Translations under genes and position numbers: made by a program
In this document: one piece after another, positions 12,305 to 27,692 of the stretch
Numbering within the stretch: position 1 is the stretch's first letter
How the letters are laid out: every line of letters begins with the position of its first letter
Origin: an uncultured Pseudomonadales bacterium
GTDB taxonomy: Bacteria; Patescibacteriota; Microgenomatia; UBA1400; MFAQ01
Reading direction: 5' to 3'
Assembly (NCBI GenBank): GCA_964648275.1
Contig: CAZYOB010000001.1
Span: 1,443 to 65,442, forward strand
Length of the DNA stretch: 64,000 nucleotides
Notes under the pieces: model-generated
Seen by the model: the letters and a program-made list of their open reading frames with translations, nothing else
Told to the model about the DNA's origin: nothing
The model's database searches: none

Positions 12305-12309
12305 AAGAT

Positions 12310-12747
12310 TTATTTGGCTTTTTTAACTGACTTTTCTTTCTTGGCGGCCTTCTTATCTTCCTTCACAGGTTTGACAGTCTCTGGCATGGGAACAACCAAC
12401 TTGAGAATGGCAAGTGCGGTTGCATCACCACGGCGGACTTCTGTCTTTTGGATAGTGGTGAAACCACTAGTCCTATCAGAAAGAGCCGGAGTAATGGTAT
12501 CAACCAGTCTGTTCCCGGAAGCGGGGTTACCCAAGGTGGCGATGACATTGCGTCTTGAACTAAGAGTCCCCTGCTTGGCTTTGGTCACCAACTTGTCAAA
12601 GAGACGTTTGATGATCTTGGCTTTGGTCACGGTCGTAGTAAGGTAACCATTCTTGATAAGTTCTTTTAACTGATTCCTGAAAAGAGCTTTTCTGTGGTTC
12701 GCGTCACGATTTAGTTTTGGCAGACGAGATTGATGTTTTACAGCCAT
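12310..12747 (-). CDS. rplQ: 50S ribosomal protein L17
   Basis: 'HRKALFRNQ' L17 signature. Confidence 0.9.
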   Translation of the reverse strand: MAVKHQSRLPKLNRDANHRKALFRNQLKELIKNGYLTTTVTKAKIIKRLFDKLVTKAKQGTLSSRRNVIATLGNPASGNRLVDTITPALSDRTSGFTTIQKTEVRRGDATALAILKLVVPMPETVKPVKEDKKAAKKEKSVKKAK

Positions 12748-12755
12748 AGTAAGTA

Positions 12756-13661
12756 TTACGCAATAGTAATGCCCTTCTCAGCGGCTTTTTCGACGACCTG
12801 AGCGGCAGATTTCTCACCAAGATTTTTCACCTTGTGGAGATCTGAAAGAGAGAGGGATTTGAGATCTGATAACTTGACAATATCGGCTTTTTTGAGAGCG
12901 TTCAGCACTCTAGTAGGAAGATCAAGATCATCGACATAACCTCCAGTTGCCAGAGTGGAAGCTTTGGGCTTGACCTCGATAAGATAGGCTTCTTCCGAGT
13001 TTACATATGCGGAATAATCAGTGAGAAGGCGAGAAGCTTCCTTGAAGGCGTCAAGTGGGGTTATGGATCCGTCGGTGACAAGTTGTAATTTGATCTTGTC
13101 GAAAGCGGTACTGCGGCCCACACGAGTGGCTTCGATGGTATAGCTTGCACTGATAACCGGAGAGAAAGAAGAATCCAGAGGGATGACGCCGATCTCTTCA
13201 GAGGTGTGTTCTTCAGCGGGCACGTAACCCATACCTCGGGCGACTGTGATAACGGCATTGATCTTGGCCTTGGGAGACGTGAGATGGCAAAGAACTTTGT
13301 CGGGATTAGTGACGGTGACGCCAGTGGGGCAATCTAGATCCGAAGCCTTGATTTCTTTTTCGCCTGAAACATGAAGTTTGACGTTTTTAATTTCGTCAGT
13401 ATCGATGGCGAAATTAACGGTCTTGAGATTTAGGATGAGGTCCAAGATATCTTCCCTGAGACCGGAGAGAGTTGAAAATTGGTGAGGAACACCATCGACC
13501 TTAATGCTGGTAGCAGATCCGCCCTCGAGAGAAGTGAGGAGGATACGGCGAAGGGAGTTACCCAGGGTGTGACCGAAGTTTTGGGGAAGAGGTTCAATAA
13601 TGATCTGAGCTGCGTTAACACCAGTATCTTTAGTGGTGACCTTAAAGTTTGGTTGTAACAT
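12756..13661 (-). CDS. rpoA: DNA-directed RNA polymerase subunit alpha
   Basis: N-terminal domain 'GHTLGNSLRRILL', C-terminal alpha-CTD, 301 aa. Confidence 0.9.
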   Translation of the reverse strand: MLQPNFKVTTKDTGVNAAQIIIEPLPQNFGHTLGNSLRRILLTSLEGGSATSIKVDGVPHQFSTLSGLREDILDLILNLKTVNFAIDTDEIKNVKLHVSGEKEIKASDLDCPTGVTVTNPDKVLCHLTSPKAKINAVITVARGMGYVPAEEHTSEEIGVIPLDSSFSPVISASYTIEATRVGRSTAFDKIKLQLVTDGSITPLDAFKEASRLLTDYSAYVNSEEAYLIEVKPKASTLATGGYVDDLDLPTRVLNALKKADIVKLSDLKSLSLSDLHKVKNLGEKSAAQVVEKAAEKGITIA

Positions 13662-13690
13662 TTTAGAATTTATACTAATTATTAAAATTT

Positions 13691-14314
13691 TTATCTTGAG
13701 TAGAACTCGATAATAAGATTCTCCTTGATGTCGGAACCGATTTCGTCACGAGTAGGAAGACGGTCAATTTTTCCAACAGTTGCTTTGCGGGATAACCACT
13801 TGGCGGGAAGATTCTTTTCGTTAAGGTTGTCAGCAACAAAGTTCATCTTAGCTCCCTCAGGAGTTAGAGATATTACTTCGCCGGGTTTGGTGAGGTAGCT
13901 GCAGATATCAACTTTTTTGTCATTAACTTTGAGATGACCGTGGGTAACAAGTTGACGGGCAAGAGAGCGGCTGATGGTGAATCCAAGGCGATAGACGACG
14001 TTGTCCAAGCGGGACTCGAGTGTCTGCATAAGAACTTCACCTGTATTTTGAGGTGACTTGAGAGACATAACGTAGTATCTGTGGAATTGGCCTTCGAGAA
14101 TGCCGTAGAGACGTTTGGCTTTTTGTTTTTCTCTGAGTTGAATTCCGTAACCGGAGATACGTCCACGGGATCTCTTTTTTCCGTGCTGACCGGGAACCTG
14201 AGCGCCTCTTTTTTCAATGGGACATTTGGGGGTAAAACAGCGGGCACCCTTGAGATAGAGCTTAACGCCTTCACGGCGACAGAGTCTGCATTTGGGATCG
14301 ATGTATTTTGCCAT
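13691..14314 (-). CDS. rpsD: 30S ribosomal protein S4
   Basis: N-terminal 'CRLCRREG...KC' zinc motif and an S4 domain. Confidence 0.9.
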   Translation of the reverse strand: MAKYIDPKCRLCRREGVKLYLKGARCFTPKCPIEKRGAQVPGQHGKKRSRGRISGYGIQLREKQKAKRLYGILEGQFHRYYVMSLKSPQNTGEVLMQTLESRLDNVVYRLGFTISRSLARQLVTHGHLKVNDKKVDICSYLTKPGEVISLTPEGAKMNFVADNLNEKNLPAKWLSRKATVGKIDRLPTRDEIGSDIKENLIIEFYSR

Positions 14315-14342
14315 AGTGTATTTTTCTTAGTGTAAGTAAATG

Positions 14343-14750
14343 TTAGACTCTCCTGGTTTTTCTGGGACGGCAGCCATTGTGAGGGATAGGAGTGGTGTCG
14401 GCAAGAAGGTTAATATCGAGACCTGAGGTCTTTAGGACGCGGATAGAAGCGTCTTTACCGGGACCGGGTCCTTTAAGGAAGACTTCAAGAGTGTTGAGGC
14501 CCAGAGATTTGGCTTTGCGGAGGCCTTCTTCAACGATGGTGGTAGCAGCGAAAGGGGTTGAGCGCTTGGCGCCTTTGAAACCACAAGTTCCAGCCGAGCT
14601 CCAGCAAACGACGTTGCCTGTCATGTCAGTAAAAGAGACATAGGTGGTATTGAAGGTGGATTTGACGTACATCTTTCCCTGACCGCCTTTGAAATGAGCG
14701 GTTGAGGCCTTTTTGGTTTTTTTGATGGTTTTTTCTTTAGGTGCTGGCAT
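14343..14750 (-). CDS. rpsK: 30S ribosomal protein S11
   Basis: 'TPIPHNGCRP' C-terminal signature. Confidence 0.9.
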   Translation of the reverse strand: MPAPKEKTIKKTKKASTAHFKGGQGKMYVKSTFNTTYVSFTDMTGNVVCWSSAGTCGFKGAKRSTPFAATTIVEEGLRKAKSLGLNTLEVFLKGPGPGKDASIRVLKTSGLDINLLADTTPIPHNGCRPRKTRRV

Positions 14751-14756
14751 GTTAGT

Positions 14757-15161
14757 TTATTTCTTGACTGGTGAAGTTTCTAGTTTGGCTGCAGCTTCTT
14801 TACTTAGGGCACCGATAGTCTTTCTCTTGCCTTTACGGGTTCGAGCATTAGTGCGTGTGCGTTGGCCGCGGACGGGAAGTCCCATGGTGTGACGGAGACC
14901 CCTATATGCCTGACTTCTTTTGAGAGTTTCGATGTTGTCACGGACCATTTTTCTTAGCTCACCCTCTGTTGGAACTGATTCAACAATAGCCTGGATGGTC
15001 TTAAGTTCGTCAGCGGTCAAGTTTTTAGTCTTGATGCTGGGATCCACTTTAGCCTGTTTAAGGATGTCTTTGGCGATCTTTTTTCCGACACCAAAGATAT
15101 AGGTGAGGGATATATCGATTCTTTTTTCGTTTGGTACGTCTACTCCTGCAAGTCTTGGCAT
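14757..15161 (-). CDS. rpsM: 30S ribosomal protein S13
   Basis: 'MPRLAGVDVP...ISLTYIFG' signature. Confidence 0.9.
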   Translation of the reverse strand: MPRLAGVDVPNEKRIDISLTYIFGVGKKIAKDILKQAKVDPSIKTKNLTADELKTIQAIVESVPTEGELRKMVRDNIETLKRSQAYRGLRHTMGLPVRGQRTRTNARTRKGKRKTIGALSKEAAAKLETSPVKK

Positions 15162-15176
15162 ATATTCAATAAGTAA

Positions 15177-15290
15177 TTAGCCCTGGCGCTGTTTATGGCG
15201 AGGGGTGGTGCAAATAACGAACACCTTACCGTGGCGTTTAATAATTTTGCAATTTTTGCATCTAGGGCGGACTGATGATTGAACCCGCAT
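15177..15290 (-). CDS. rpmJ: 50S ribosomal protein L36
   Basis: Not in the ORF track because it is under 60 aa. Hand translation gives [37 protein letters not shown], with the C..C..C..H zinc ribbon. Confidence 0.85.
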
Positions 15291-15349
15291 GCTTATATAT
15301 TTAAGTGTTAGTAATTGATTTTGGACATTGGAAAACAGGAGAAGATGGA

Positions 15350-15568
15350 TCAGCTCTGACGGAATACAATCCTGCCTTTGGTGGTGTCGTATGGGCTCAT
15401 ATCGAGCTTAACTTTGTCACCCGGCATGACTTTTATGCGATATAGACGCATTTTTCCGGCGAGATGGGCCAAGATTTCTCTGCCATCTTCGAGGGTTACC
15501 CTGAATTGTGTGTTTGGTAAGGCCTCGGAGACGACTCCGTTTACCTCAGTCATCTGGTTTTTAGCCAT
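15350..15568 (-). CDS. infA: Translation initiation factor IF-1
   Basis: 72 aa from MAKNQ. The S1-like fold 'GKMR...PGDKV' is present. The longer track ORF is a 5' over-extension. Confidence 0.85.
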
Positions 15569-15683
15569 ATTAAGTTGTGCAAGTGGTATTGTACCAGAGA
15601 CAGGCTCAAATTGCCAGTTAGCCCTGGGCACGACCACGTAGGGGATATTGTACATCAATTATGTGAGGAATGTACACCAATCT

Positions 15684-16418
15684 CTAGTTTGCCTGGGTGA
15701 GAATTATGGGGCCGTCTTGGCTGATATAGACTGTTTCCTCAAACATGCCTGTGACCGAGCCATCCTGGGTAGAAAGAGTCCAGCCATCGCTATCCTCAAC
15801 CAGGCTAGGTCGCCCCATGGCATACATTATCTCGATGGCAATGGTCTGGTTTTCATGAAGAATGTTTTTCTTGGTGTGAGGGTCCGCGAAGCAGGGAATG
15901 TACGGTTCCATGTGAAGTTCTTTGCCTATACCGTGGCCAGTCAGGTCTCTGATGACCGAATATCCGGCAGGCTCAACCGTGTCCTGCATAGCCAAGCTAA
16001 TATCGAAGATCGTGTTCCCAGGGCGGGCCGCCACAATGGCACGGGAGAGGGCTAGCTGGCCGATCTTAAGGAATTCAGTAGTTTTGTTATCAACAGGCTC
16101 AACTTGAATCGTTAGAGATGAATCGAGGTGATAACCATTATGGAATAACCCCATGTCTACCTTGACAACATCTCCGGATTTAAAGGGAATGTCATTGGGA
16201 ATGCCATGAACCATTCCTGAGTTGACGTTGATACAAGTGGCATTGAAGTATCCTGGAACCATTTTAAAAGAAGGTCTATCACCGCCTTTGACGATAAGAT
16301 CATCAATCACTTGGTCGATTTCCCGTGGAGTGACTCCGGCTTTTATTTTCGAGGAGATGAGGGACTTGATGTGCCCTAAGCGTTTACCGCCCTCAACCAT
16401 GGCGGTGAGTTTGTTCAT
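15684..16418 (-). CDS. map: Methionine aminopeptidase type I
   Basis: Metal ligands in 'DVVKVDMG' and 'HGIG', pita-bread fold, 244 aa. Confidence 0.9.
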   Translation of the reverse strand: MNKLTAMVEGGKRLGHIKSLISSKIKAGVTPREIDQVIDDLIVKGGDRPSFKMVPGYFNATCINVNSGMVHGIPNDIPFKSGDVVKVDMGLFHNGYHLDSSLTIQVEPVDNKTTEFLKIGQLALSRAIVAARPGNTIFDISLAMQDTVEPAGYSVIRDLTGHGIGKELHMEPYIPCFADPHTKKNILHENQTIAIEIMYAMGRPSLVEDSDGWTLSTQDGSVTGMFEETVYISQDGPIILTQAN

Positions 16419-16987
16419 GAGACATATTTTACATCTTCGAGCTTGCTGACGATATCCCGAAAAACCGTATCGATGTCCGGGGTACCATTAACCTCGATGA
16501 CTTTGCCTTGCTGGCGATAGAAGTCTATGACGGGAACTGTTTCATTCTGATAGAGCTCAAGGCGTTTTTGCATGGCTTCGTCGTTGTCATCAGTGCGATG
16601 CTCGATTTCAGCCCGTTTACGCATTCTGTTAAGGCTTTCCTCATGTGAAAGGGTGAGCAGGACAACCTTATCCAGCTTAACCCCCACTCTCTTAAAAACT
16701 TTTTCCAGCTCCTGGGCTTGAAATAGATTTCTGGGGGTGCCGTCAAGAATGAAACCATTTTTTTGATTGAGTGGAGTCTTTTCAAGAACAGAAAAAAGTT
16801 CGGAGTCAGATATCAGTTCACCGGTGTTGATTTTTTCCTGGAGTGCCCTGCCGAAGGGGCTGTTTGACGCAACCTCCTGCCTGATCAGTTCTCCGGTCGA
16901 AATGTGATTGAGATTGTATTTATCGGCCAACAGTTTGGCTTGAGTGCCCTTGCCCGACCCTTGAGGTCCCAATATTATTAAGTTCAT
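16415..16987 (-). CDS. adk: Adenylate kinase
   Basis: 'ILGPQGSGKGTQA' P-loop, 190 aa, short-lid type. Confidence 0.9.
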   Translation of the reverse strand: MNLIILGPQGSGKGTQAKLLADKYNLNHISTGELIRQEVASNSPFGRALQEKINTGELISDSELFSVLEKTPLNQKNGFILDGTPRNLFQAQELEKVFKRVGVKLDKVVLLTLSHEESLNRMRKRAEIEHRTDDNDEAMQKRLELYQNETVPVIDFYRQQGKVIEVNGTPDIDTVFRDIVSKLEDVKYVS

Positions 16988-16989
16988 CT

Positions 16990-18273
16990 TTAACTTAAAA
17001 ACTTTTCGTAGTGGTGCATGTAGAGTTGCGAGTTGATCGACTTCAGAATTTCCAGGACTACCGAAACAACGATAAGAACCCCGGTACCACCAATGGCTAG
17101 CGCGGACACTCCAGTGATGCCGGAAACAATGGCCGGCATGACGGCGACCAGTCCGAGGAAAAATGCGCCGACAAGAGTGATGCGGTTAAGAACAAAATTA
17201 AGGTACTTGATCGTATCAGGACCGGGACGGACTCCAGGAATGAAGCTGCCCGACTGTCTGAGGTCTTTAGCGATTTTTTCCGGATTAAAGACAACTGCGG
17301 TGTAAAAGTAGGTAAAGGCAACGACGAAGAAGAAGTAAAGTGCATTGTATAAGAAACTATTGGGGTTGAGTGAGTTGCTGAGATTGGTAGCAAGTTGAGC
17401 CAGTTGAGGTTGCTGAACACCCGATAGAACCCGAGCGAGAAGTCCGGGAATCATCATGAAAGAAACTGCGAAGATGATCGGAATGACACCGGCTTGGTTC
17501 AATCTGAGGGGGAGATGGTTTTTGACGGCAGCTGTGTAGGAGGTGAGCCCTCTTCTAGCCGACTGAATGGGAACTTCTCTGGTGGCTTCACTAGCGCGGA
17601 CAATGGCGTAAATGACAGCAAGAGAGGCAGCAAGAAAGATGCCGTACTGGATAAACATGGATTGATCGGCTGTGGTAAATAATTGGACGGCGGTGACGGG
17701 CAGACGGCTAATAATGCCGACAAAGATCAGTAAGCTAATCCCATTACCAAGGCCGTAGTCATTAAGTTGTTCTCCCAACCAGACCATAAGAGCAGTGCCA
17801 GCCGAGAGGGTAAAGACTATGCTAGCCAATTGAAGAGGATCGGAGGTGGTAGTGAGTCCCTGACGAGAAAGTAAGAAGAGTAGACCGACGGCTTGCATAA
17901 AACAGAGAGGAACAGTGAGAAGTCTGGTGTACTGGTTGATCTTCTGACGACCGTAGTCCCCTTCTTTCTGGAGTTCTTCGATTTTGGGAATAACCATACC
18001 CAACATTTGGATAATGATGGAGGCGTTGATGTATGGGTTCAACCCTAGGGCCATGATGGAAAAATTGCCCAAGGTTCCACCGGAAAAGACGTCCAAAAGT
18101 GAGAGGAAGGCAGATTGATCGAAAATATTTTTTAAGGAAGCAAGGTTGATCCCCGGGGCTGGGATGTGGGCAACGAAACGGATAATAGCGATAATAAGAG
18201 CCGTAAAGATAAGACGGTTTCGAAGATCCTTAATCTTCAGAAGTCCGCGAAAAGGAGCTAATAAATTTTCCAT
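16990..18273 (-). CDS. secY: Preprotein translocase subunit SecY
   Basis: 427 aa with 10 TM helices, in its conserved position after the adk/map side of the cluster. Confidence 0.9.
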   Translation of the reverse strand: MENLLAPFRGLLKIKDLRNRLIFTALIIAIIRFVAHIPAPGINLASLKNIFDQSAFLSLLDVFSGGTLGNFSIMALGLNPYINASIIIQMLGMVIPKIEELQKEGDYGRQKINQYTRLLTVPLCFMQAVGLLFLLSRQGLTTTSDPLQLASIVFTLSAGTALMVWLGEQLNDYGLGNGISLLIFVGIISRLPVTAVQLFTTADQSMFIQYGIFLAASLAVIYAIVRASEATREVPIQSARRGLTSYTAAVKNHLPLRLNQAGVIPIIFAVSFMMIPGLLARVLSGVQQPQLAQLATNLSNSLNPNSFLYNALYFFFVVAFTYFYTAVVFNPEKIAKDLRQSGSFIPGVRPGPDTIKYLNFVLNRITLVGAFFLGLVAVMPAIVSGITGVSALAIGGTGVLIVVSVVLEILKSINSQLYMHHYEKFLS

Positions 18274-18317
18274 GTGTTTATATTCTAGCAGGGAATTATG
18301 CGTACAGTCGGTCTTGA

Positions 18318-18851
18318 TTACAGATTTTGGCCCCTACATTCCCAGAGGTCTGTTATCCCGTCTCTGTTGTAATCGTATGTGACCCATGCTATCGGGCAGT
18401 AAAAGTATTTACCACTTTCATTAGTGACGCATTTATACCCATTCCTGACCTTCTCGGGGGTAACGTAGGAAACAAGACTACTATTAGGACAGGTGGTCGT
18501 GGACCAATCTGAAACGGTAGGAACTGTCTTTGTGGGAGTAGGAGCATCTTTGCTCTTAACAAATGAACAGATCGGGATATTGGTGGACTTACCGGTCTTG
18601 GAGTCCTTGCGTTTCTCCGTCCTTGTCTTTTCGCAAATTCCGCCCCCAATCCTATCGCCTACTGAGGCATTCTTACATTTGCTGTCGGATTTGGCTGGGT
18701 GGCAACTTTTTGATGCAGCTGAAGAACTAATGTCGAGAGATGGGGAGGTAAAAGCGACTATGGCAGCCGAAAGACCGAGAACCAATAATGCTACCGGGAG
18801 AAACCTTTTAAGGTTAAGTTTGCTGACCGAAAAGCTCTTTTTCTTGGACAT
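18318..18851 (-). CDS. Hypothetical Cys-rich secreted/anchored protein
   Basis: N-terminal TM or signal peptide (LPVALLVLGLSAAIVAF), 10 cysteines, no recognisable domain. It is inserted between rplO and secY. Confidence 0.45.
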   Translation of the reverse strand: MSKKKSFSVSKLNLKRFLPVALLVLGLSAAIVAFTSPSLDISSSAASKSCHPAKSDSKCKNASVGDRIGGGICEKTRTEKRKDSKTGKSTNIPICSFVKSKDAPTPTKTVPTVSDWSTTTCPNSSLVSYVTPEKVRNGYKCVTNESGKYFYCPIAWVTYDYNRDGITDLWECRGQNL

Positions 18852-18887
18852 AATAAAAATATACCATATCGACCGTTGTCTTTAAAT

Positions 18888-18912
18888 ACAAAAAAGCGGC
18901 AATGAGCCGCTC
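18888..18912 (-). terminator. Rho-independent terminator downstream of rplO
   Basis: On the minus strand: GAGCGGC-TCATT-GCCGCT followed by TTTTTTG. Confidence 0.5.
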
Positions 18913-18936
18913 CTTTGTACTGCTATATTTTTTGTA

Positions 18937-19383
18937 TTATTTGGCGAATGAATATTTTCCTCCGGCTTTCTCAATGAGTTTGACAGCTCCTGCAGTGGCC
19001 AAGACGGCAATCTCCAGAGGCTTTTCAATCTTGCCAGTGGCAACGATCTTGAAACCTCTTTTGGATTCTTTCTCGTTGAGTTTCAGACTTTCCGAAAGAA
19101 GTTTGGCATCAACAACGGTGTTATCGGCAAACTTGCTCAAGAAATCAAGATTAACGACAATGGGCTGAGAGTATATGGACTGGAAACGGTGCTTACCTTT
19201 GATGAAAGGGGTACGTCTAACGATTGGAAGCTGTCCACCTTCAAACCAGGCTGGGATGGTACCACGGGTCTTCTGGCCCTTTTGACCACGACCGACAGTG
19301 TGACCGCCAACTCCGGAACCAAAACCGCGACCAAGGCGTTTTTTGCTCTTAAGGGTAGATTTGGGTAAACTTGCAAGTAACAT
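18937..19383 (-). CDS. rplO: 50S ribosomal protein L15
   Basis: 'RLGRGFGSG.GGHTVGRGQKGQK' signature. Confidence 0.9.
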   Translation of the reverse strand: MLLASLPKSTLKSKKRLGRGFGSGVGGHTVGRGQKGQKTRGTIPAWFEGGQLPIVRRTPFIKGKHRFQSIYSQPIVVNLDFLSKFADNTVVDAKLLSESLKLNEKESKRGFKIVATGKIEKPLEIAVLATAGAVKLIEKAGGKYSFAK

Positions 19384-19388
19384 AGTCT

Positions 19389-19892
19389 TTATTTAATTTT
19401 GAGCAACTTGTATTTTTTGTCGAGAAGCTCGATGTGCTTAAGGGCTTTGAAGGTAGCGCGGGCATTGGTGGTCTTGTTGTTCGATCCGAGGGATTTACAG
19501 ACGATGTCGGTAATACCAGCGGCTTCGACGACTGCGCGAACGGCAGAACCGGCAATGATACCAGTACCCTTGGGAGCGGGTCTAAGAAGAACTTCTGCGG
19601 CGCCAAATTTGGATTTGGTTTCGTAGGGAATAGTGCCTTCTTTGATAGGAACCATGACCAGGTCACGATTACCAAGGCGGATGGACTTCTTGATGGCATC
19701 GGCGACGTTAGGGGCTTTGGCGAGACCAAGACCGACCTTACCTTTTTTGTCTCCAGTAACAACGAGAGCGGAAAAGGCCACCTGACTACCACCTTGAGTT
19801 TTCTTGCTGACACGACGGATTTGAAGTACCTGCTCAAAACCTTCCGGTTGAGGGCGAGGACTATTTCGGTTGGGGGTTTGTGAATAAGCCAT
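19389..19892 (-). CDS. rpsE: 30S ribosomal protein S5
   Basis: dsRBD plus a C-terminal domain with 'GTGIIAG..VR'. Confidence 0.9.
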   Translation of the reverse strand: MAYSQTPNRNSPRPQPEGFEQVLQIRRVSKKTQGGSQVAFSALVVTGDKKGKVGLGLAKAPNVADAIKKSIRLGNRDLVMVPIKEGTIPYETKSKFGAAEVLLRPAPKGTGIIAGSAVRAVVEAAGITDIVCKSLGSNNKTTNARATFKALKHIELLDKKYKLLKIK

Positions 19893-19897
19893 ATTTT

Positions 19898-20245
19898 TTA
19901 GAATTTAATTCCTGATTGACGAACGGCTTCCGCAAGAGCCTTGACGCGGCCATGAAATCTGTATGATCCGCGATCAAAGACGACCTCGGTAACTTTTTTC
20001 TCCTTGGCCAGTTCGGCTATTTTTGTACCGACCTGAGTGGCGATTTCAACGTTAGTGCCTTTGGCATCTTTGATTGACTGAGATGAGAAACCGGCCAAAA
20101 CTTTGCCTGTTTTTTCGATGATCTGAGCAGAAATGTGTTGATTCGAACGAGAAACTACGAGCCTGGGTTTGAGCGACACTGCGAGAAGTGACCTTCTAAT
20201 GCGATGCTGCCTCTTGATTTTAGGGGTAAGATTTTTTTCTATCAT
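19898..20245 (-). CDS. rplR: 50S ribosomal protein L18
   Basis: 'RLVV.RSN.HI.AQ' L18 pattern. Confidence 0.9.
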   Translation of the reverse strand: MIEKNLTPKIKRQHRIRRSLLAVSLKPRLVVSRSNQHISAQIIEKTGKVLAGFSSQSIKDAKGTNVEIATQVGTKIAELAKEKKVTEVVFDRGSYRFHGRVKALAEAVRQSGIKF

Positions 20246-20251
20246 ATTCTT

Positions 20252-20800
20252 TTAGGCGGCTGATTTAGTGGCGGTCTTGCCCTGTTTCTTGATAACCACT
20301 TCGTCTGTGTAACGGATGCCCTTGCCCTTGTAAGGCTCAGGTTTCTTGATGGCTCTGATGTTAGCAGCTACTTGTCCGACCAATTGTTTGTCGATGCCGG
20401 AGATGTTGATCTTATCCTGGCCTTCAACAACCACACTGACTCCGTCTACTTTTTTGAAGATGACGGGATGGCTGTAACCAACAGAAAGAGAGATACCTTC
20501 GGGGTGAGCGGCAACACGATATCCTGTACCAACCAGTTGGAGTTGTTTGCTAAATCCGTCCACGACTCCGGTGGCGGCGTTTTGGGCGAGGCGGCGGATT
20601 AGTCCATGTAAAGCTTTGACTGCTGGGATTTCGGAGGTGCGGACAAAGTTTAAGACGTTATCTTTTTCCTCAACCTTGATGGTTTCGGGAAGGGTGACTT
20701 CCAGAGAACCTTTGGGGCCAGTGAATTTTAGAATCCCATCAACCTTCTCGTATTTTACCGAGTCTGGCAGGTGAAGGGGTTTGCGTCCTATGCGGCTCAT
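20252..20800 (-). CDS. rplF: 50S ribosomal protein L6
   Basis: 'MSRIGRKPL' N-terminus and two L6 domains. Confidence 0.9.
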   Translation of the reverse strand: MSRIGRKPLHLPDSVKYEKVDGILKFTGPKGSLEVTLPETIKVEEKDNVLNFVRTSEIPAVKALHGLIRRLAQNAATGVVDGFSKQLQLVGTGYRVAAHPEGISLSVGYSHPVIFKKVDGVSVVVEGQDKINISGIDKQLVGQVAANIRAIKKPEPYKGKGIRYTDEVVIKKQGKTATKSAA

Positions 20801-20823
20801 ATAATTTTTTTAAATAATGGTGT

Positions 20824-21213
20824 TTACCAAACTTGACAAATAATTTCTCCTCCGAGGTGGTTCTTCGAGGCTTGCTTACCGGCCATAAGGCCTTTAGAAG
20901 TGGAAACGATGGTAAGACCAGCTCCGGAAAGAGTAAGGGGGATCTCGTTGTAGGCTTTGTGAATTCTGACACTGGGTTTACTGACTCTCTTAATGCCGGC
21001 GATGGCAGGGAGATCTTTTTCGAAGTAACGGAGAGTAACGGTCAATTTTGAGACCGGTTTCTCTTCGATAACTGTAAAGTCAGAGACAAAACCTGCTTCT
21101 TTGAGAATCTTGACGATCTCAAGGCGGGTCTTCGAGACGTTGACAGTGATGGTTTCCCTCTTTGCGAGGTAACCGTTTCTTATAGCAGTAAGGAAGTCGG
21201 CGATAGTATCCAT
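20824..21213 (-). CDS. rpsH: 30S ribosomal protein S8
   Basis: 'DTIADFLTAIRNG' N-terminus and a C-terminal 'GGE..C.VW'. Confidence 0.9.
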   Translation of the reverse strand: MDTIADFLTAIRNGYLAKRETITVNVSKTRLEIVKILKEAGFVSDFTVIEEKPVSKLTVTLRYFEKDLPAIAGIKRVSKPSVRIHKAYNEIPLTLSGAGLTIVSTSKGLMAGKQASKNHLGGEIICQVW

Positions 21214-21214
21214 A

Positions 21215-21400
21215 TTATTTGCTCATTTTGTAAACTCCGGGGAGTTCACCTTTGTGGACTAATTTTCTAAAACAGTGACGGCAGATGCCAAAGAGACGAA
21301 TATATCCCCTGGGACGACCGCAAAGTTTGCAGCGATTGTGGTCTCGGGTCGAATGACCTTTGAGCTTTTTTGTTTTAGCGATTTTGCTTGTTTTAGCCAC
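21215..21400 (-). CDS. rpsZ: 30S ribosomal protein S14 type Z (zinc-binding)
   Basis: 61 aa with C..C...C..C. Confidence 0.9.
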
Positions 21401-21420
21401 GATAGTTTGGTTTTAGTAAT

Positions 21421-21969
21421 TTAGGCTGTCTTTGTAAAAGGCATTCCAAGAGAGGTGAGAAGCTTTTCGGCCTGAGCGGAATCATCAGCAGAAGTGGAAA
21501 TTGTCATTTCTAGCCCTTGAATCCTGCCAATTTTATCATATTCGATCTCAGGGAACACGATCTGTTCGGAAAGTCCGAGAGTATAGTTGCCGTTTTTGTC
21601 GAAGGTGGTGCGGGAGACTCCCTGGAAATCTTTGATACGAGGAAGAACTATGCCAATCAATTTCTGGAAAAAATCATACATGCGGTCTCCCCTGAGAGTG
21701 GTTTTCAGACCGACAACATCACCCTCTCTTAGATTGAAAGCGGCGATGGACTTCTTAGAGCGGGTTTCCATAGGTGTTTGTCCGGTAATGGTGGAAAGCC
21801 AACCCTTGGTCTTGTCTAAGAATTCCTTGTCCGTCTTAAAGTCTTTGGAGCTGGTATTGACGGTGATCTTAACCATCTTAGGAACAGCTTCAATGCTCTT
21901 GAGTCCAAGCTCTTTTTGAAGAGCGGGGCGGATTTCTTTCTGGTATTGGTCTTTTAGTGTTTGGGTCAT
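21421..21969 (-). CDS. rplE: 50S ribosomal protein L5
   Basis: L5 signature and position between L24 and S14. Confidence 0.9.
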   Translation of the reverse strand: MTQTLKDQYQKEIRPALQKELGLKSIEAVPKMVKITVNTSSKDFKTDKEFLDKTKGWLSTITGQTPMETRSKKSIAAFNLREGDVVGLKTTLRGDRMYDFFQKLIGIVLPRIKDFQGVSRTTFDKNGNYTLGLSEQIVFPEIEYDKIGRIQGLEMTISTSADDSAQAEKLLTSLGMPFTKTA

Positions 21970-22301
21970 TTGCTTTTCTTAGTGGTAGTAGTGGCGTTTA
22001 TAACCTGGCGGCAGCGATGACAGACTCTGACCTTGGGTTCCTGGGAGGCATCAAAGCCAACTCTGGTAGGTTTGCCACAGGATGGGCAGACGAGGGCAAC
22101 GCTGGCAACTGAGAGTGCACGAGGAAGGGTGAGGATCTGACCGGCTTCATTACCCTTGGGTTTGATGTGTTTCTTATAGAGGTTAATACCTTCGACGAGT
22201 ACTTTGTGTGCTTTTGGATCGACCTCAAGGACCTTACCGGTCCGACCTTTGTCCTTACCAGCAGTAACTTGAATGGTGTCGTTGACTTTAAACTTGTACA
22301 T
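21966..22301 (-). CDS. rplX: 50S ribosomal protein L24 (with C4 zinc-ribbon-like insertion)
   Basis: KOW motif 'GKDKGRTGKV', and a C-terminal half with CPSC...CHRC. Confidence 0.9.
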   Translation of the reverse strand: MYKFKVNDTIQVTAGKDKGRTGKVLEVDPKAHKVLVEGINLYKKHIKPKGNEAGQILTLPRALSVASVALVCPSCGKPTRVGFDASQEPKVRVCHRCRQVINATTTTKKSK

Positions 22302-22313
22302 ATTCTTTTATTT

Positions 22314-22688
22314 TTATATGACCTCGGGAGCAAGAGAGGCTATCTTGGCGAAACCAGCTTCTTTTACCTCGCGGGCAACTGGTCCAAAAATACGGGTTCC
22401 AAGAGGTTGCTTTGAGCTAATGGAGTCAATAATAACGGCGGCGTTGTCATCGAATCTGACATAAGTACCATCCGGACGGCGTGTTTCTTTGCGAGTACGG
22501 ACAATAACGGCTTTGACCACCTGTTTGTCCTTGACCGCTCCGTTGGTATCGGCACCTTCGACAGCGGCTGTGACGATATCACCGATGTGACCGAATCTGC
22601 GGCGAGAACCTCCATGAACCAAAATCACTTTAATAAGCTTGGCTCCTGAATTGTCGGCAATGTTAAGTACGGATCTTAGCTGGATCAT
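22314..22688 (-). CDS. rplN: 50S ribosomal protein L14
   Basis: '[13 protein letters not shown]' signature. Confidence 0.9.
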
Positions 22689-22912
22689 AGGACTTTAGTG
22701 ATTTGCCAGGCTTTGTTTTTGCTAATGGGTTTGGTCTCTTCCATAAGAACGGTATCGCCGGCTTTGGCACCGATCTCGTTGTGGGCAAGGTATGATTTGG
22801 TGACTTTTGAGCGTTTTAGGTATTTGGGGTGAACTTTGAACCTGGTAACGATCACGGTCGCACTCTTGGTCATTTTGTCACTCTTGACTACGCCTTGTAG
22901 ATGTTTCTTCAT
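22685..22912 (-). CDS. rpsQ: 30S ribosomal protein S17
   Basis: 75 aa with an OB fold. Confidence 0.9.
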
Positions 22913-23067
22913 AGACTTTTTGATTTAGTTAGCAACTGAGCAATTTCTTTTTTAAGCTTTTTATGAGCATTGGTGTTTTTTTCCTGCCCGGCTTTTATGG
23001 ATAGCTTAACCGAGACCAATTTGGTCTTAAGTTCAGCCAGATTTGTTTGGAGATCGCTTTTAGTCAT
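22909..23067 (-). CDS. rpmC: 50S ribosomal protein L29
   Basis: I set the start at MTKSDL, because the upstream part of the track ORF overlaps rplP. This gives a 52-aa helical hairpin. Confidence 0.8.
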   Translation of the reverse strand: MTKSDLQTNLAELKTKLVSVKLSIKAGQEKNTNAHKKLKKEIAQLLTKSKSL

Positions 23068-23473
23068 TGTTTTTTTCGATAAATTTGGTTTTAACAGAAA
23101 GCTTGTGACTGGCGAGGCGGATAGCTTCGGAGGCGATTTCACGAGATACTCCGGAGATTTCCATGAGGATCTGGCCGGGTTTGACTACGGCAACGTAACC
23201 TGAGATATCGGCTTTTCCGGAACCCATACGAGCACCAGCAACTTTGTTGGTGATAGGTTTGTGGGGGAAGACTCTGAGGAAGAATTTACCTACACGCTTG
23301 GTGTGGTGAGTGATGGTACGCCTGGCCGACTCAATTTCGGCAGCAGAGAGCCAACCACATTCCTGGGTTTTGATACCGAAGTCTCCGTAGGAAAGAGTAT
23401 TGCTTCGGGTGGCAATTCCGGACATTGTGCCTCGGAACTCTTTTCTATATTTTCGTCTTGCGGGTTGTAGCAT
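23060..23473 (-). CDS. rplP: 50S ribosomal protein L16
   Basis: 'MLQPARRKYRK' N-terminus. Confidence 0.9.
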   Translation of the reverse strand: MLQPARRKYRKEFRGTMSGIATRSNTLSYGDFGIKTQECGWLSAAEIESARRTITHHTKRVGKFFLRVFPHKPITNKVAGARMGSGKADISGYVAVVKPGQILMEISGVSREIASEAIRLASHKLSVKTKFIEKNND

Positions 23474-23482
23474 GTTAGTAAT

Positions 23483-24136
23483 TTATTTAGCTAATACGTC
23501 TCCGGTGTAGATCCAGACTTTGACACCAACATATCCGGACCTTGTCAGTGCAGGGAGTTCGGCATAATCTATATTGGCTCTTAAAGTTTGGGTGGGAACG
23601 CGACCTTGCTTAAAAGACTCTTGTCTGGCAATTTCTGCTCCGTCAATCCTTCCGGAAAACATTATTTTAACACCTTTTGCCCCTGCAGCCATGACTTTCT
23701 CAATTGCCTGGTTGGCAGCGCGGCGGAAAGGATAGCGGTGAGCGAGTTGGTTGGCAAGGCGATCGGCGATGATGGCGGAGCTGAGATCGGGGATCTTGAT
23801 CTCCATGGGGTGAAGGTTGACCTTGATGGCGCTCTTGGTCTTATATATACCGAGAAGTTTTTCAACTTCTTTTTTGAGAGCTTCAAGGGAAGACCCTCCA
23901 CGGCCGATAACAACACCGGGACGGGAAACGTACATGAAGATGTCGACTGTGTTGATAGAACGCTTGATCTCAATAGTGGTGATGCCGGCAAGCTTCAGTT
24001 TTTCCTCCAAGAACCTGCGGATCTTGTTATCCTCAATGACAAATTTGGAATAGTTTTGCTCTGTGGCAAACCAAACCGATTTTGTCGGGAATATGACTCC
24101 GGTACGGAAGCTGGTAGGATGGACTTTTTTACCCAT
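23483..24136 (-). CDS. rpsC: 30S ribosomal protein S3
   Basis: KH domain 'GKKVHP' N-terminus, 217 aa. Confidence 0.9.
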   Translation of the reverse strand: MGKKVHPTSFRTGVIFPTKSVWFATEQNYSKFVIEDNKIRRFLEEKLKLAGITTIEIKRSINTVDIFMYVSRPGVVIGRGGSSLEALKKEVEKLLGIYKTKSAIKVNLHPMEIKIPDLSSAIIADRLANQLAHRYPFRRAANQAIEKVMAAGAKGVKIMFSGRIDGAEIARQESFKQGRVPTQTLRANIDYAELPALTRSGYVGVKVWIYTGDVLAK

Positions 24137-24138
24137 GT

Positions 24139-24600
24139 TTATTTAGTTTTCTTAGTTGTTTTAACAGCCTTAGTTTTGGCAGCTACCTTTGGCTCTTCAA
24201 CTTTCTCTGCTTTGGGAGCAGCGACTTTGGGAGCCTGGATGGCGGGAGCTTCTTGAATTCTAAGGTTCAGAGTAAGGTGGGAGGCGATGCGCTCGTAAGG
24301 CTTGGTGCGACCACGACCACCGATGTGAGCGCGTTTGAGTGTGCGGCCCTTGGTGGCGAAGGCAGAATCAATGACCAATGAGTCTGGAGAGGCCGAGTGA
24401 AGAGAAACAGCATTGCCGATAGCTTGTTTGATGAGCTTGGCGACCGGATCTGCAGCTCTTTGGGGAGTGAGGGTCAGTTGTTTGAGTACCAGAGTGGCAC
24501 GACGGCCGACGATTGCCTCGAGAAGCAAGTTAGCTTTTCTGGGAGAAACCAGAACGTGTTGGGCGCGAGCAACGATGATTGTAGGATTAGTTTTAGCCAT
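24139..24600 (-). CDS. rplV: 50S ribosomal protein L22 (with Lys/Ala-rich C-terminal extension)
   Basis: L22 core followed by an 'AAPKAEKVEEPKVAAKTKAVK' tail. Confidence 0.9.
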   Translation of the reverse strand: MAKTNPTIIVARAQHVLVSPRKANLLLEAIVGRRATLVLKQLTLTPQRAADPVAKLIKQAIGNAVSLHSASPDSLVIDSAFATKGRTLKRAHIGGRGRTKPYERIASHLTLNLRIQEAPAIQAPKVAAPKAEKVEEPKVAAKTKAVKTTKKTK

Positions 24601-24606
24601 ATTATT

Positions 24607-24891
24607 TTAGGTCTTGCTTAGAAGTCTCTTAACCATACGTCCGTGGCCACGGAAGGTACGAGTGGGAGAGAATTCACCCAAGCGGTGACCAACCATGTCT
24701 TCGGTAACAAAAACTTCTTTAAATATCTTGCCGTTGTGAACAAGGAAGGTGTAGCCGACGAATTCAGGAGGAATCTGACTATTTCTGGCCCAGGTCTTGA
24801 TACCTTCTTTTTTTCCGGCAGCCTTAAGACGCTCAACTTTTTGGATGAGCCTCTCGTTTACGTATGGTCCTTTTTTAGAGCTTCTAGACAT
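24607..24891 (-). CDS. rpsS: 30S ribosomal protein S19
   Basis: '[11 protein letters not shown]' N-terminus and a 'HNGK' motif. Confidence 0.9.
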
Positions 24892-24901
24892 ATTGATTTA
24901 T

Positions 24902-25660
24902 TTATTTTTTGCCACGACGTTTGATAATGAGGTGGTTGCTGTGTTTCTTTTTATTTCTGGTGCGGACACCCATGACGCGTTTACCGTAGACAGATTTAGG
25001 CGATTTGAGACCGATTCCGGATCTTCCTTCACCTCCACCGTGTGGATGAGAGCGGGGATCCTGGGCGACACCACGAACGGTTGGGCGGCGGCCCATGTGT
25101 CTGGCACGACCGGCTGAACCAATTTGTTCTTCTTTGTGATGTTCCTGTCCAAGAGCACCGACGGTAGCCTTGGCGGCGGGATTGAAAGAGCGGATCTCAC
25201 CAGACGGGAGTTTGACCAAAATTTTATCCTCTTCTTTCGATTGGACGACGGCGAAGTTACCGGCCGAACGAACCATTTGAGCGCCTTTACCCGGCATGAT
25301 TTCTAAGTTGTGGATCTGGACACCAATGGGGATGTTCCTTAAGGGAAGGCAGTTGCCTGTTTTTATTTCAGCGGCTTCGGAAGATTGAATAAGATCACCA
25401 ATCTTGAGTCCCTGAGGAGCAAGGATGTAGTCTTTGAGTCCATTCTGGTATGCAAGAAGAGCTATCTCGACTGTGCGGTTTGGATCGTACTGAATGGAAA
25501 TGACTTTGGCAGGAACCGAGGTGTTTCGTTTCCAATCGATGTGTCTTAACTGTCTCTTTTCGCGGCCACCCTGGTGACGGACTGTGATCTTTCCGGAGGA
25601 GTTCCTACCAGAAGACTTGGGGTTAATTCGTTTTAGACGTTTTGGTACTGCGACTTTCAT
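24902..25660 (-). CDS. rplB: 50S ribosomal protein L2
   Basis: 'GGGEGRSGIG', 'HPHGGGEG' and 'YDPNR' motifs. Confidence 0.9.
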   Translation of the reverse strand: MKVAVPKRLKRINPKSSGRNSSGKITVRHQGGREKRQLRHIDWKRNTSVPAKVISIQYDPNRTVEIALLAYQNGLKDYILAPQGLKIGDLIQSSEAAEIKTGNCLPLRNIPIGVQIHNLEIMPGKGAQMVRSAGNFAVVQSKEEDKILVKLPSGEIRSFNPAAKATVGALGQEHHKEEQIGSAGRARHMGRRPTVRGVAQDPRSHPHGGGEGRSGIGLKSPKSVYGKRVMGVRTRNKKKHSNHLIIKRRGKK

Positions 25661-25666
25661 ATGTTT

Positions 25667-25975: not shown

Positions 25976-25976
25976 A

Positions 25977-26612: not shown

Positions 26613-26617
26613 GAGTA

Positions 26618-27244: not shown

Positions 27245-27249
27245 GTTTT

Positions 27250-27280
27250 TTCAGAAAAACGTCCCCGGATTTCCGGGGGA
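27250..27280 (-). promoter_or_regulatory. GC-rich hairpin plus U-run between rpsJ and rplC (attenuator/terminator-like)
   Basis: On the minus strand: TCCCCCGGA-AAT-CCGGGGA followed by CGTTTTTCTG, about 6 nt upstream of the rplC ATG. Confidence 0.35.
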
Positions 27281-27336
27281 CCCGAAAATCAGAATTGGAG
27301 TTTTGTTTTAGTAATTTAATGTTTGCATAGCGCGAC

Positions 27337-27648: not shown

Positions 27649-27692
27649 ATGAAGTTTTTACAAAGTGCTAATTTTTTGAGACTTGGTTAGTC

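What the first reader, a model, noticed from the sequence alone, without database searches (positions are those of the whole stretch)
18318..18912. Cys-rich secreted protein and an intrinsic terminator inserted between rplO and secY inside the ribosomal supercluster
L15 is almost universally followed directly by secY. Here rplO is followed by a clean hairpin/U-tract terminator (18888..18912). A 177-aa ORF with an N-terminal hydrophobic anchor and 10 cysteines (probably disulfide-rich and extracytoplasmic, with no known domain) lies between that terminator and secY. The terminator would uncouple secY-adk-map-infA-rpmJ-rpsM... from the upstream S10/spc transcript, and the inserted gene looks like lineage-specific cargo in one of the most conserved gene arrays known.
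Basis: partly seen in the sequence, partly recalled or inferred. Interest (0 to 1): 0.5.

Follow-up and report, generated by a model that had tools for sequence, protein, structure and literature searches.

The report
Orphan gene in ribosomal-cluster cargo slot
In this uncultured groundwater bacterium (Candidatus Collierbacteria), a strain-specific gene for a small cysteine-rich exported protein sits between ribosomal protein L15 and SecY, in a gap bounded by a terminator and a promoter that holds different genes in almost every related genome.

Summary
On the minus strand the order is rplO (18937-19383), a canonical hairpin/U-tract terminator (18884-18918), a 177-aa ORF (18318-18851) and secY (16990-18273). 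The ORF has 8 cysteines, not 10.

The ORF is an orphan: only near-identical copies from the same groundwater population were found, and no family, fold or phage match. It is probably real. An ORF this long arises by chance with P about 0.0003-0.0015. It has a signal-peptide-like N-terminus, 2x4 cysteines around a Pro/Thr linker, and 3 synonymous versus 1 non-synonymous population SNPs. Its ATG lies 6 nt after an extended -10 box. Codon usage is atypical.

The main result is comparative. In 15 of 16 distinct Collierbacteria loci (SecY 60-100% identical) the rplO-secY junction holds different cargo of 1-5 mostly unknown genes; one is empty (125 nt). The flanking signals recur whatever the cargo: a terminator after rplO, and TGnTA(G/A)AAT 7-10 nt before the secY ATG, which suggests a leaderless secY mRNA. 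The terminator is therefore a clade feature, not part of the insertion. Three more distant relatives (SecY 52-58%) have rplO abutting secY. Transcription was not tested.

The parts
18937..19383 (-). rplO (ribosomal protein L15), the last gene of the upstream S10/spc transcription unit
   Evidence: ORF. Pfam Ribosomal_L27A. It follows rpsE after 5 nt, with no rpmD between them.
18884..18918 (-). Intrinsic (rho-independent) terminator: A-tract, 13-bp stem with a GC-rich core, 5-nt loop, U6 tract
   Evidence: -19.7 kcal/mol, z = -6.5. Read directly from the sequence. An equivalent hairpin/U-tract with a different stem sequence follows rplO in 9 of 10 relatives folded.
18858..18886 (-). Candidate promoter of the 177-aa ORF: TTTAAA, 17 nt, TGgTATATT (extended -10). 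The -10 box ends 6 nt before the ATG, the signature of a leaderless mRNA.
   Evidence: Promoter scan hit with TG. Pattern search TGnTAnA[AT]T-N5-10-start. Leaderless criterion from PMC3160421. Inferred, not mapped.
18318..18851 (-). Orphan 177-aa gene: signal peptide or signal anchor (aa 1-34), Cys module 1 (C50, C59, C73, C95), Pro/Thr linker (about aa 100-115), Cys module 2 (C121, C141, C152, C172) with an FG-GAP-like DYNRDGITDL loop (aa 160-169)
   Evidence: sequence features; ORF length P = 0.00025-0.0015; Cys enriched 8-fold; best of six frames, but a low codon score; 3 synonymous and 1 non-synonymous SNPs; intact in all contigs shown that carry the identical secY; FG-GAP motif match.
18282..18290 (-). 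Extended -10 promoter element TGCTAGAAT of secY, 8 nt upstream of the secY ATG, with no Shine-Dalgarno sequence. Predicted leaderless or near-leaderless secY-adk-map transcript.
   Evidence: Sequence. TGnTA(G/A)AAT lies 7-10 nt before the secY ATG in 12 of 16 distinct Collierbacteria loci, and 12-14 nt before it in 2 more, although the DNA upstream of the motif is unrelated.
16990..18273 (-). secY, the first gene of the downstream unit (secY-adk-map)
   Evidence: Pfam SecY 4.6e-101. 100% identical to a protein named Candidatus Collierbacteria SecY.

Best explanation
The window comes from a Candidatus Collierbacteria genome (CPR/Microgenomates). In this clade the ribosomal supercluster is cut between rplO and secY into two transcription units. 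An intrinsic terminator ends the S10/spc unit after rplO. A conserved extended -10 promoter, TGnTA(G/A)AAT, sits 7-10 nt before the secY start codon and restarts transcription as a leaderless or near-leaderless secY-adk-map mRNA.

The DNA between these two signals is dispensable for expression of the essential genes on either side. It is flanked by highly conserved genes that can serve as homology arms. It behaves as an accessory-gene slot whose content turns over between close relatives.

In this strain the slot holds one orphan gene. The gene has its own extended -10 promoter 6 nt before its ATG. It encodes a small basic protein with a Sec-type signal peptide or N-terminal anchor. The extracytoplasmic part has two four-cysteine modules, probably two disulfides each, joined by a Pro/Thr linker. 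The second module carries a DxNxDGxxD loop of the FG-GAP calcium-binding type. No terminator follows the gene, so its transcript should continue into secY.

Shown: the anatomy, the orphan status, and the clade-wide variability of the slot with conserved bounding signals. Inferred: termination, transcription start sites, export, disulfides, calcium binding, and turnover by homologous recombination. The most likely role is a strain-variable cell-surface protein, but that is a guess.
For: Anatomy.

Terminator: strength. Nine of the 10 post-rplO spacers folded form A-tract/GC-stem/U-tract terminators with different stem sequences, -12 to -21 kcal/mol.

secY promoter: the motif is conserved at a fixed short distance from the ATG across loci with SecY 72-100% identical, while the sequence just upstream is unrelated. 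In the outgroups L022 and L042 the rplO stop overlaps the secY start (TAATG), preceded by GGAGGAA.

Slot variability (SecY identity to the window in brackets):
- L045 (97%, N-terminal fragment): 203-aa unknown.
- L001 (93%): DUF2284-like.
- L015 (92%): LamG-type protein of 715 aa or more.
- L050 (89%): 97-aa ORF plus a methyltransferase.
- L003 (82%): no rplO within 4 kb upstream.
- L002 (81%): 109-aa ORF with its own consensus promoter and terminator.
- L051 (81%): empty, 125 nt.
- L052, L053, L054, L016, L064, L055, L056, L057: other cargo.

L063, L042 and L022 (52-58%) have rplO abutting secY.

Cargo families are mosaic across the SecY identity ranking, and the 177-aa ORF is unique.

The ORF is real:
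- Length P = 0.00025-0.0015.
- Best of six reading frames.
- Cys enriched 8-fold, in a 4+4 layout with a PT linker.
- SNPs 3 synonymous to 1 non-synonymous.
- Intact in all 5 distinct places shown, out of 24 contigs read that carry the identical SecY.
- Start codon 6 nt after TGgTATATT.
- A -10-like box about 10-12 bp upstream of a start codon is the published signature of leaderless genes (PMC3160421).
Against: The ORF's codon-usage log-odds (-0.037) is below every housekeeping gene in the window (mean 0.25, minimum 0.007). It is about equal to the best wrong-frame score of real genes (-0.042).

No homologue exists outside the same population, so there is no conservation test.

The SNP count is tiny. 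By my estimate P is about 0.05 for 3 of 4 being synonymous if a quarter of random changes are synonymous.

The one non-synonymous SNP puts a Lys in the hydrophobic core (I31K).

AlphaFold2 without an alignment gave pLDDT 54.

No clear AXA cleavage site follows the hydrophobic region.

Most genes in this cluster lack a Shine-Dalgarno sequence anyway, so its absence before secY is not in itself evidence for a leaderless mRNA.

L054, L057 and L064 show no terminator in the stretch printed just after rplO, and L045's hairpin is weak.

No transcript data were available.
Confidence: 0.68

Rival explanations
1. The 177-codon ORF is not a gene. The rplO-secY spacer is a long non-coding or decaying remnant region, and the ORF is a chance or relic reading frame.
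For: The codon-usage score is below all real genes in the window, and GC by codon position is atypical (0.39/0.50/0.49 versus 0.55/0.39/0.47). There is no homologue beyond at least 99% identical copies among 5.8 billion clusters and 1.84 billion representatives. The structure prediction is poor. The relative L055 has about 640 nt with no called gene in the same slot.
Against: P = 0.00025-0.0015 for an ORF this long, and it fills the space between its promoter-like element and the secY promoter. It scores best of six frames by a margin of 0.16. Its layout is protein-like: a basic N-region, an 18-residue hydrophobic region, 4+4 cysteines, a PT linker and a DxNxDG loop. Three of 4 population SNPs are synonymous in this frame. 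It is intact in every contig shown for this population.
Confidence: 0.12
2. The hairpin is leaky or acts as an attenuator or RNA-stabilising 3' structure, so secY is still transcribed mainly by read-through from the S10/spc promoter. The TGnTAGAAT element is only a minor internal promoter, or has another role.
For: Internal weak terminators and internal promoters are common in long ribosomal operons (general knowledge). An extended inverted repeat (18850-18866 with 18921-18937) would form only in read-through RNA, and would then bury the ORF's start region. Some relatives show no terminator in the stretch printed just after rplO (L054, L057, L064).
Against: The stem (-19.7 kcal/mol) with an uninterrupted U6 tract is of the strong class. 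In several relatives the cargo carries its own second terminator just before the secY promoter (L002, L003, L016, L045, L052), so secY could not rely on read-through there. The promoter motif is conserved far better than the surrounding DNA.
Confidence: 0.2
3. The cargo is delivered by a site-specific mobile element or cassette system. The conserved sequences at the slot borders would be attachment sites rather than, or as well as, transcription signals.
For: Borders are sharply defined and conserved (ATATAGCAG...ACAAA before the terminator in four loci; CCTGnTAGAATATA before secY), with unrelated DNA between them. Some cargo units are self-contained promoter-gene-terminator cassettes (L002). 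The same cargo families recur in non-sister genomes.
Against: The window's insert has no flanking direct repeats. No recombinase, integrase or transposase was seen among the slot genes examined. There are no relatives in viral contigs or phage records. The border motif fits a -10 element at exactly the distance expected for a promoter.
Confidence: 0.06

Closest known systems
The spc operon of E. coli and the S10-spc-alpha supercluster of most bacteria (rplO directly followed by, and co-transcribed with, secY)
   Same: Same gene order on both sides: L6, L18, S5 and L15, then SecY, Adk, Map, IF-1, S13 and S11.
   Different: Here rplO and secY are separated by 663 nt that contain a strong terminator, an unrelated gene and a dedicated secY promoter. 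L30 is absent. The more distant relatives L022 and L042 keep the classical overlapping TAATG junction, and L063 has a 20-nt gap.
Mycobacterium tuberculosis rplO...secY separation (L15 = Rv0723, SecY = Rv0732)
   Same: A precedent for non-ribosomal genes lodged at exactly this junction. Seven to eight locus tags lie between the two genes. Their identities are from my memory only.
   Different: As far as I know the mycobacterial insert is a fixed set of genes. Here the content differs between genomes whose SecY is 80-97% identical.
Accessory-gene integration hotspots between conserved core genes (for example the E. coli pangenome hotspots and defence islands, PMC10121019 and PMC13386857, from their abstracts)
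   Same: Conserved flanking core genes, variable content among relatives, and many genes of unknown function. Some slot cargo matches defence-system models (mad2- and mad3-like).
   Different: The location is inside the ribosomal protein supercluster. Inserts are tiny (0-5 genes). There are no integrases, tRNA or att repeats. The slot is bounded by a conserved terminator/promoter pair.
Leaderless genes with a -10 box about 10-12 bp upstream of the start codon (Zheng et al. 2011, PMC3160421)
   Same: A TANNNT-type box, here with the extended TG, lies 6-8 nt before the start codons of the ORF and of secY.
   Different: The transcription start sites are not mapped. The organism is a CPR bacterium in which most clustered genes lack a Shine-Dalgarno sequence anyway.
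FG-GAP / FG-GAP_3 repeats (PF01839, PF13517), calcium-binding loops of beta-propeller proteins
   Same: Residues 152-170 (..YDYNRDGITDLWE..) match the repeated GDFNRDGITDL loop of the FG-GAP protein P0002 (59% identity over 19 aa, whole-library E = 4.6e-6).
   Different: There is a single motif, no Pfam hit for the ORF itself, and no possibility of a propeller from one repeat. It is a motif resemblance, not family membership.

Membership tests
Intrinsic (rho-independent) terminator | Stable GC-rich stem-loop | tested here: met
   13-bp stem with core GGAGCGGC/GCCGCUUU and a 5-nt loop; -19.7 kcal/mol, z = -6.5.
Intrinsic (rho-independent) terminator | Uninterrupted U-tract immediately 3' of the stem, placed after a stop codon | tested here: met
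   The U6 run (18895-18890) begins directly after the GC core. The hairpin starts 18 nt after the rplO stop codon.
Intrinsic (rho-independent) terminator | RNA 3' ends produced at the U-tract in vivo or in vitro | not testable with these tools
   No transcript data. Indirect support: an analogous terminator at the same position in 9 of 10 relatives folded.
Leaderless-mRNA gene (promoter -10 box directly upstream of the start codon) | A -10-like box (TANNNT, optionally with extended TG) about 10-12 bp upstream of the start codon | tested here: met
   ORF: TGgTATATT, then 6 nt, then ATG. secY: TGCTAGAAT, then 8 nt, then ATG. Criterion from PMC3160421.
Leaderless-mRNA gene (promoter -10 box directly upstream of the start codon) | The signal and its distance are conserved in orthologues | tested here: met
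   For secY: 12 of 16 distinct loci at 7-10 nt, and 2 more at 12-14 nt. This cannot be tested for the orphan ORF, which has no orthologues.
Leaderless-mRNA gene (promoter -10 box directly upstream of the start codon) | Transcription start site coincides with the start codon | not testable with these tools
   Needs 5'-end mapping.
Sec-type signal peptide / N-terminal signal anchor | A positively charged N-region followed by a hydrophobic region of 15 or more residues | tested here: met
   MSKKKSFSVSKLNLKR, then FLPVALLVLGLSAAIVAF. Maximum 15-residue Kyte-Doolittle hydropathy is 2.74, starting at residue 20.
Sec-type signal peptide / N-terminal signal anchor | A signal peptidase I site (small residues at -3 and -1) shortly after the hydrophobic region, or a lipobox | tested here: inconclusive
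   Read by eye. No lipobox cysteine. The only A-x-A-like site (SSA|AS, around residues 44-46) is about 12 residues past the hydrophobic region. No signal-peptide predictor was available, so cleaved versus anchored is undecided.
FG-GAP repeat family (PF01839 / PF13517) | The Pfam model scores above the gathering threshold | tested here: not met
   No FG-GAP hit for the ORF even at E up to 10.
FG-GAP repeat family (PF01839 / PF13517) | Several tandem repeats able to form a beta-propeller | tested here: not met
   A single D-x-N-x-D-G-x-x-D motif in the protein, and the only one in the whole window.
DUF7327 (PF24013) | The Pfam model scores above the gathering threshold | tested here: not met
   13.8 bits against a cut-off of 27, E = 0.058, and the match covers the N-terminal hydrophobic region.
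Accessory-gene hotspot between core genes | The same two core genes flank gene content that differs between close relatives | tested here: met
   Fifteen of 16 distinct loci with SecY 60-100% identical carry different cargo, and one is empty.
Mobile-element island (integrative element, prophage or integron cassette) | A recombinase or integrase, flanking direct repeats, or att sites | tested here: not met
   No flanking repeats. No recombinase domains in the slot genes examined. No viral relatives.

The most novel reading that the evidence does not exclude
The rplO|secY junction, and perhaps the secY|adk and map|infA junctions as well, may act as a dedicated gene-nursery slot in Collierbacteria. 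This would be a transcriptionally insulated landing pad inside the most conserved and highly expressed gene array. New or foreign ORFs would be captured there, expressed from leaderless promoters with read-through into essential secY, and swapped between strains by recombination through the flanking ribosomal and translocon genes. The 177-aa Cys-rich surface protein would be one very young product, either born de novo or diverged beyond recognition, involved in strain-specific cell-surface or host interaction.
Probability: 0.2. Interest if true: 0.7.

Novelty: new variant of a known kind. Interest (0 to 1): 0.45.

Why it matters
The S10-spc-alpha array is the textbook example of gene order frozen across bacteria, and it is used as a syntenic and phylogenetic marker block for uncultured lineages. 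This clade has turned one junction of that array into a fast-evolving accessory slot, bounded by a terminator and a promoter that probably drives a leaderless mRNA.

This matters in four ways:
- It gives a concrete case of how transcriptional insulation can make a site inside an essential cluster permissive to gene gain.
- It warns against assuming a contiguous rplO-secY in binning and marker pipelines for CPR genomes.
- It provides predicted promoter and terminator signals for organisms that cannot be cultured.
- It points to a set of orphan genes, including this Cys-rich exported protein, that vary at strain level. These are candidates for surface or host-interaction functions in episymbiotic bacteria.

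If the ORF is not expressed, the finding reduces to an unusual operon break.

Tried and rejected
- Homology for the ORF. The word-indexed search of 5.8 billion clusters found only a 99% identical copy. The exhaustive HMMER search of 1.84 billion representatives added only an FG-GAP motif hit. Pfam, NCBIfam, PHROGs, PADLOC and PDB sequences gave nothing above noise. IMG/VR and GenBank phages gave nothing.
- Structure. AlphaFold2 on the single sequence gave pLDDT 54. Only a beta-hairpin at residues 71-99 reached about 80. Foldseek against the PDB had a best E of 0.9, which is meaningless.
- Rfam on the spacer. Three sub-threshold sRNA hits caused by the terminator hairpin were rejected.
- Mobile-element signatures. 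There are no flanking direct repeats, and no paralogues or other FG-GAP-like motifs in the window.
- Remnants of the ORF in relatives' slots. A relaxed tblastn (E up to 10) found nothing credible.
- Leaderless rpsJ. I considered that a TGTTAAATT pattern at 27625 marked a leaderless rpsJ start. The ORF list shows that rpsJ starts at 27648 (ATG), so I dropped this idea.
- Covariation count on the terminators. The MAFFT alignment (A1) does not keep the stems in register, so I relied on folding each hairpin separately.
- Literature. Searches for this junction and for Collierbacteria found no description of the slot. One paper search and one paper look-up failed on term syntax.
- Simulation. A first attempt timed out and was rerun.

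Full report
**What is there**

All relevant genes lie on the minus strand. The order is:
- rpsE (19389-19892)
- rplO (18937-19383)
- a hairpin with a U-tract (18884-18918)
- a 177-aa ORF (18318-18851)
- secY (16990-18273)
- adk (16415-16987)
- map (15684-16418)

Pfam confirms S5, L15 and SecY. Gene calls on identical contigs give the same order, continuing with IF-1, S13 and S11. The SecY protein is 100% identical to one named Candidatus Collierbacteria, so the organism belongs to the CPR/Microgenomates. Identical or near-identical contigs come from groundwater metagenomes.

**Checking the observation**

The coordinates given for the hairpin cover its core.
- The terminator reads ACAAAGGAGCGGC-UCAUU-GCCGCUUUUUUGU. 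It folds at -19.7 kcal/mol with z = -6.5, and none of 200 shuffles folds as well. The whole 94-nt spacer gives -29 kcal/mol, z = -5.3.
- The generic terminator scan is uninformative in this region (20 sites found, 20.9 expected). The hairpin's strength and its conservation in relatives carry the argument.
- The protein has 8 cysteines, not 10. That is still eight times the cysteine frequency of the window's housekeeping genes.

**Is the ORF a gene?**

Evidence for:
- An ORF of at least 177 codons appears in only 0.025% of 663-nt simulations trained on the spacer's composition, and in 0.15% of those trained on the window's.
- It is the best-scoring of the six frames.
- Its ATG lies 6 nt after TGgTATATT, with TTTAAA 17 nt upstream. 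secY has the same arrangement.
- The product has a protein-like layout. It has a basic N-region, an 18-residue hydrophobic stretch, four cysteines, a Pro/Thr linker and four more cysteines. Near the C-terminus is a DYNRDGITDL loop. That loop matches the repeated calcium-binding loop of a true FG-GAP protein.
- Seven independently assembled copies carry four SNP sites in the ORF. Three are synonymous (P37, C95, P122) and one is not (I31K).
- The gene is intact in every place shown for contigs that carry the identical SecY.

Evidence against:
- The codon score (-0.037) is lower than that of any housekeeping gene in the window.
- There is no homologue outside this population among 5.8 billion clusters or 1.84 billion representatives.
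- There is no family, fold or phage match.
- The single-sequence structure model is poor.

I rate it as a real but young or fast-evolving orphan gene, with probability about 0.85.

**The surroundings change the picture**

I collected the same junction from 15 other distinct genomes whose SecY is 60-97% identical to the window's. SecY identities are in brackets below.
- L045 (97%, N-terminal fragment): 203-aa unknown protein.
- L001 (93%): 172-aa DUF2284-like protein.
- L015 (92%): a LamG-type protein of more than 715 aa, with no rplO in the 2.4 kb upstream.
- L050 (89%): 97-aa ORF plus a SAM methyltransferase.
- L003 (82%): more than 4 kb of unrelated genes.
- L002 (81%): 109-aa ORF with a perfect TTGACA-17-TATAAT promoter and its own terminator.
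- L051 (81%): nothing, only 125 nt.
- L052 (80%): 127-aa ORF.
- L053 (80%): five genes, including a methyltransferase and an ATPase.
- L054 (77%): three small ORFs.
- L016 (76%): three ORFs in 2.2 kb.
- L064 (74%): four ORFs.
- L055 (74%): the DUF2284-like gene again.
- L056 (72%): two ORFs.
- L057 (60%): 234-aa ORF.

Almost none of these proteins has a Pfam domain.

An all-against-all comparison shows a few cargo families that recur in non-adjacent lineages. These are the DUF2284-like protein, the methyltransferase, a 121-125-aa family and a 97/203-aa family. The 177-aa ORF matches none of them.

In three more distant relatives (SecY 52-58% identical) rplO abuts secY. L022 and L042 have the overlapping TAATG junction, and L063 has a 20-nt gap.

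**The bounding signals are conserved although the cargo is not**

Nine of the 10 post-rplO spacers I folded form canonical A-tract/GC-stem/U-tract terminators. Their stems have different sequences and their stabilities range from -12 to -21 kcal/mol.

Immediately before secY, 12 of the 16 distinct loci have TGnTA(G/A)AAT 7-10 nt from the ATG. Two more have it at 12-14 nt. The DNA upstream of the motif is unrelated between loci. The empty junction of L051 still has both signals within its 125 nt.

A -10-type box about 10-12 bp upstream of a start codon is the published signature of leaderless genes (PMC3160421). I therefore infer two things. In this clade the S10/spc unit terminates after rplO. 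secY-adk-map is then transcribed from its own promoter as a leaderless or near-leaderless mRNA. The terminator is a clade feature. It did not arrive with the ORF.

**Mechanism proposed**

The terminator/promoter pair makes the DNA between rplO and secY neutral for expression of the essential genes on either side. The very conserved flanks provide homology for exchange between strains. The junction therefore accumulates and swaps small accessory genes.

The window's insert has no flanking repeats. No recombinase was seen among the slot genes examined. A site-specific mobile element is therefore unlikely.

In this strain the occupant is an exported, probably disulfide-bonded, basic small protein with predicted pI 9.0 for the mature part. 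No terminator lies between its stop codon and the secY promoter, so its transcript should continue into secY. Its function is unknown. My best guess is a strain-variable surface protein.

**Comparison with what is known**

The classical spc operon co-transcribes rplO and secY. M. tuberculosis is a precedent for genes lodged at this junction, with L15 as Rv0723 and SecY as Rv0732. Accessory-gene hotspots between core genes are well known in other bacteria (one search lists examples).

Three things are different here:
- The location is inside the ribosomal supercluster.
- The turnover is fast and involves very small cargo.
- A conserved terminator and a promoter of the leaderless type frame the slot.

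Full-text searches found no description of this arrangement.

**Verdict**

It missed the secY promoter and the clade-wide slot, and it is wrong that the terminator is part of the insertion. Transcription, translation and export remain untested.

Noticed in passing
window 19384-19388: rpsE is followed by rplO after only 5 nt, so no rpmD (L30) gene lies between them. This fits the reported frequent loss of L30 in CPR bacteria (abstract of bioRxiv 10.1101/2022.01.07.475337).
   Followed up: no
window 12000-30000, minus strand: Most ribosomal protein genes in the cluster have A-rich upstream sequences with no Shine-Dalgarno motif (for example TAAAGACT-ATG and TAAAAAAT-ATG). A few genes elsewhere in the window have clear AAGGAGG motifs (starts at 62566, 59324 and 35456).
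   Followed up: partly
window 15567-15683; also L051, L054, L056, L057, L063, L064: infA (MAKNQ..., ATG at 15567) has its own TGGTACAAT extended -10 box at 15596-15588, about 19 nt upstream. The gene caller used on identical contigs called a 101-aa extended version. The map|infA junction is empty here but holds extra genes in several relatives (103-857 aa). The secY|adk junction is occupied in L053, L054 and L064. The supercluster therefore seems to have several cargo slots.
   Followed up: partly
L053 1370-3946; L050 3188-3946; L003 2471-3145: The slot cargo in three relatives includes a homologous SAM-dependent methyltransferase. In L053 there is also an adjacent 612-aa ATPase on the opposite strand. 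In PADLOC these match mad2 (2e-20, tested on the L050 methyltransferase only) and mad3 (1.5e-29) of the methylation-associated defence system. This suggests the slot sometimes carries a defence-like module.
   Followed up: partly
window 18850-18866 and 18921-18937: A 17-nt inverted repeat (82% complementary) brackets the terminator. In a read-through transcript it would extend the hairpin and pair the rplO-distal spacer with the ORF's -10 box and start region. It could be a chance effect of A/T-rich sequence, or a device that silences translation of the ORF on read-through RNA.
   Followed up: no
window 27263-27278, minus strand: A 6-bp all-GC hairpin, CCCCGG-AAAT-CCGGGG, followed by a T-rich run lies between rpsJ (27337-27648) and rplC (26618-27244). 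It may be an internal terminator or attenuator near the start of the S10 unit.
   Followed up: no
L001 (CAZIPD010000001.1): This 83-kb contig is titled 'uncultured Pseudomonadales bacterium', yet it encodes SecY, S5 and L15 that are 93%, 95% and 87% identical to the Collierbacteria window, with the same gene order. The record is probably mis-binned or mislabelled.
   Followed up: no
window 33116-34443, minus strand: An ORF for a DEAD-box helicase (Pfam DEAD plus Helicase_C) begins at a TTG that lies 8 nt after TGTTATAAT. This is the same spacing as at secY and hints at a leaderless mRNA. The true start codon is uncertain, because the DEAD domain begins only at residue 117.
   Followed up: no
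window 1-64000: GC skew is positive on the plus strand in almost every 2-kb bin, and the cumulative skew rises monotonically to 3.2. Nearly all genes are on the minus strand. A paper on a complete Microgenomates genome reports an unusual strand composition disparity (PMC7143001, title and abstract).
   Followed up: no
L063 2981-3000: In the outgroup-like genome whose rplO-secY gap is only 20 nt, that gap still contains TATAAAAT 6 nt before the secY ATG. A promoter directly upstream of secY may therefore pre-date the opening of the slot.
   Followed up: no
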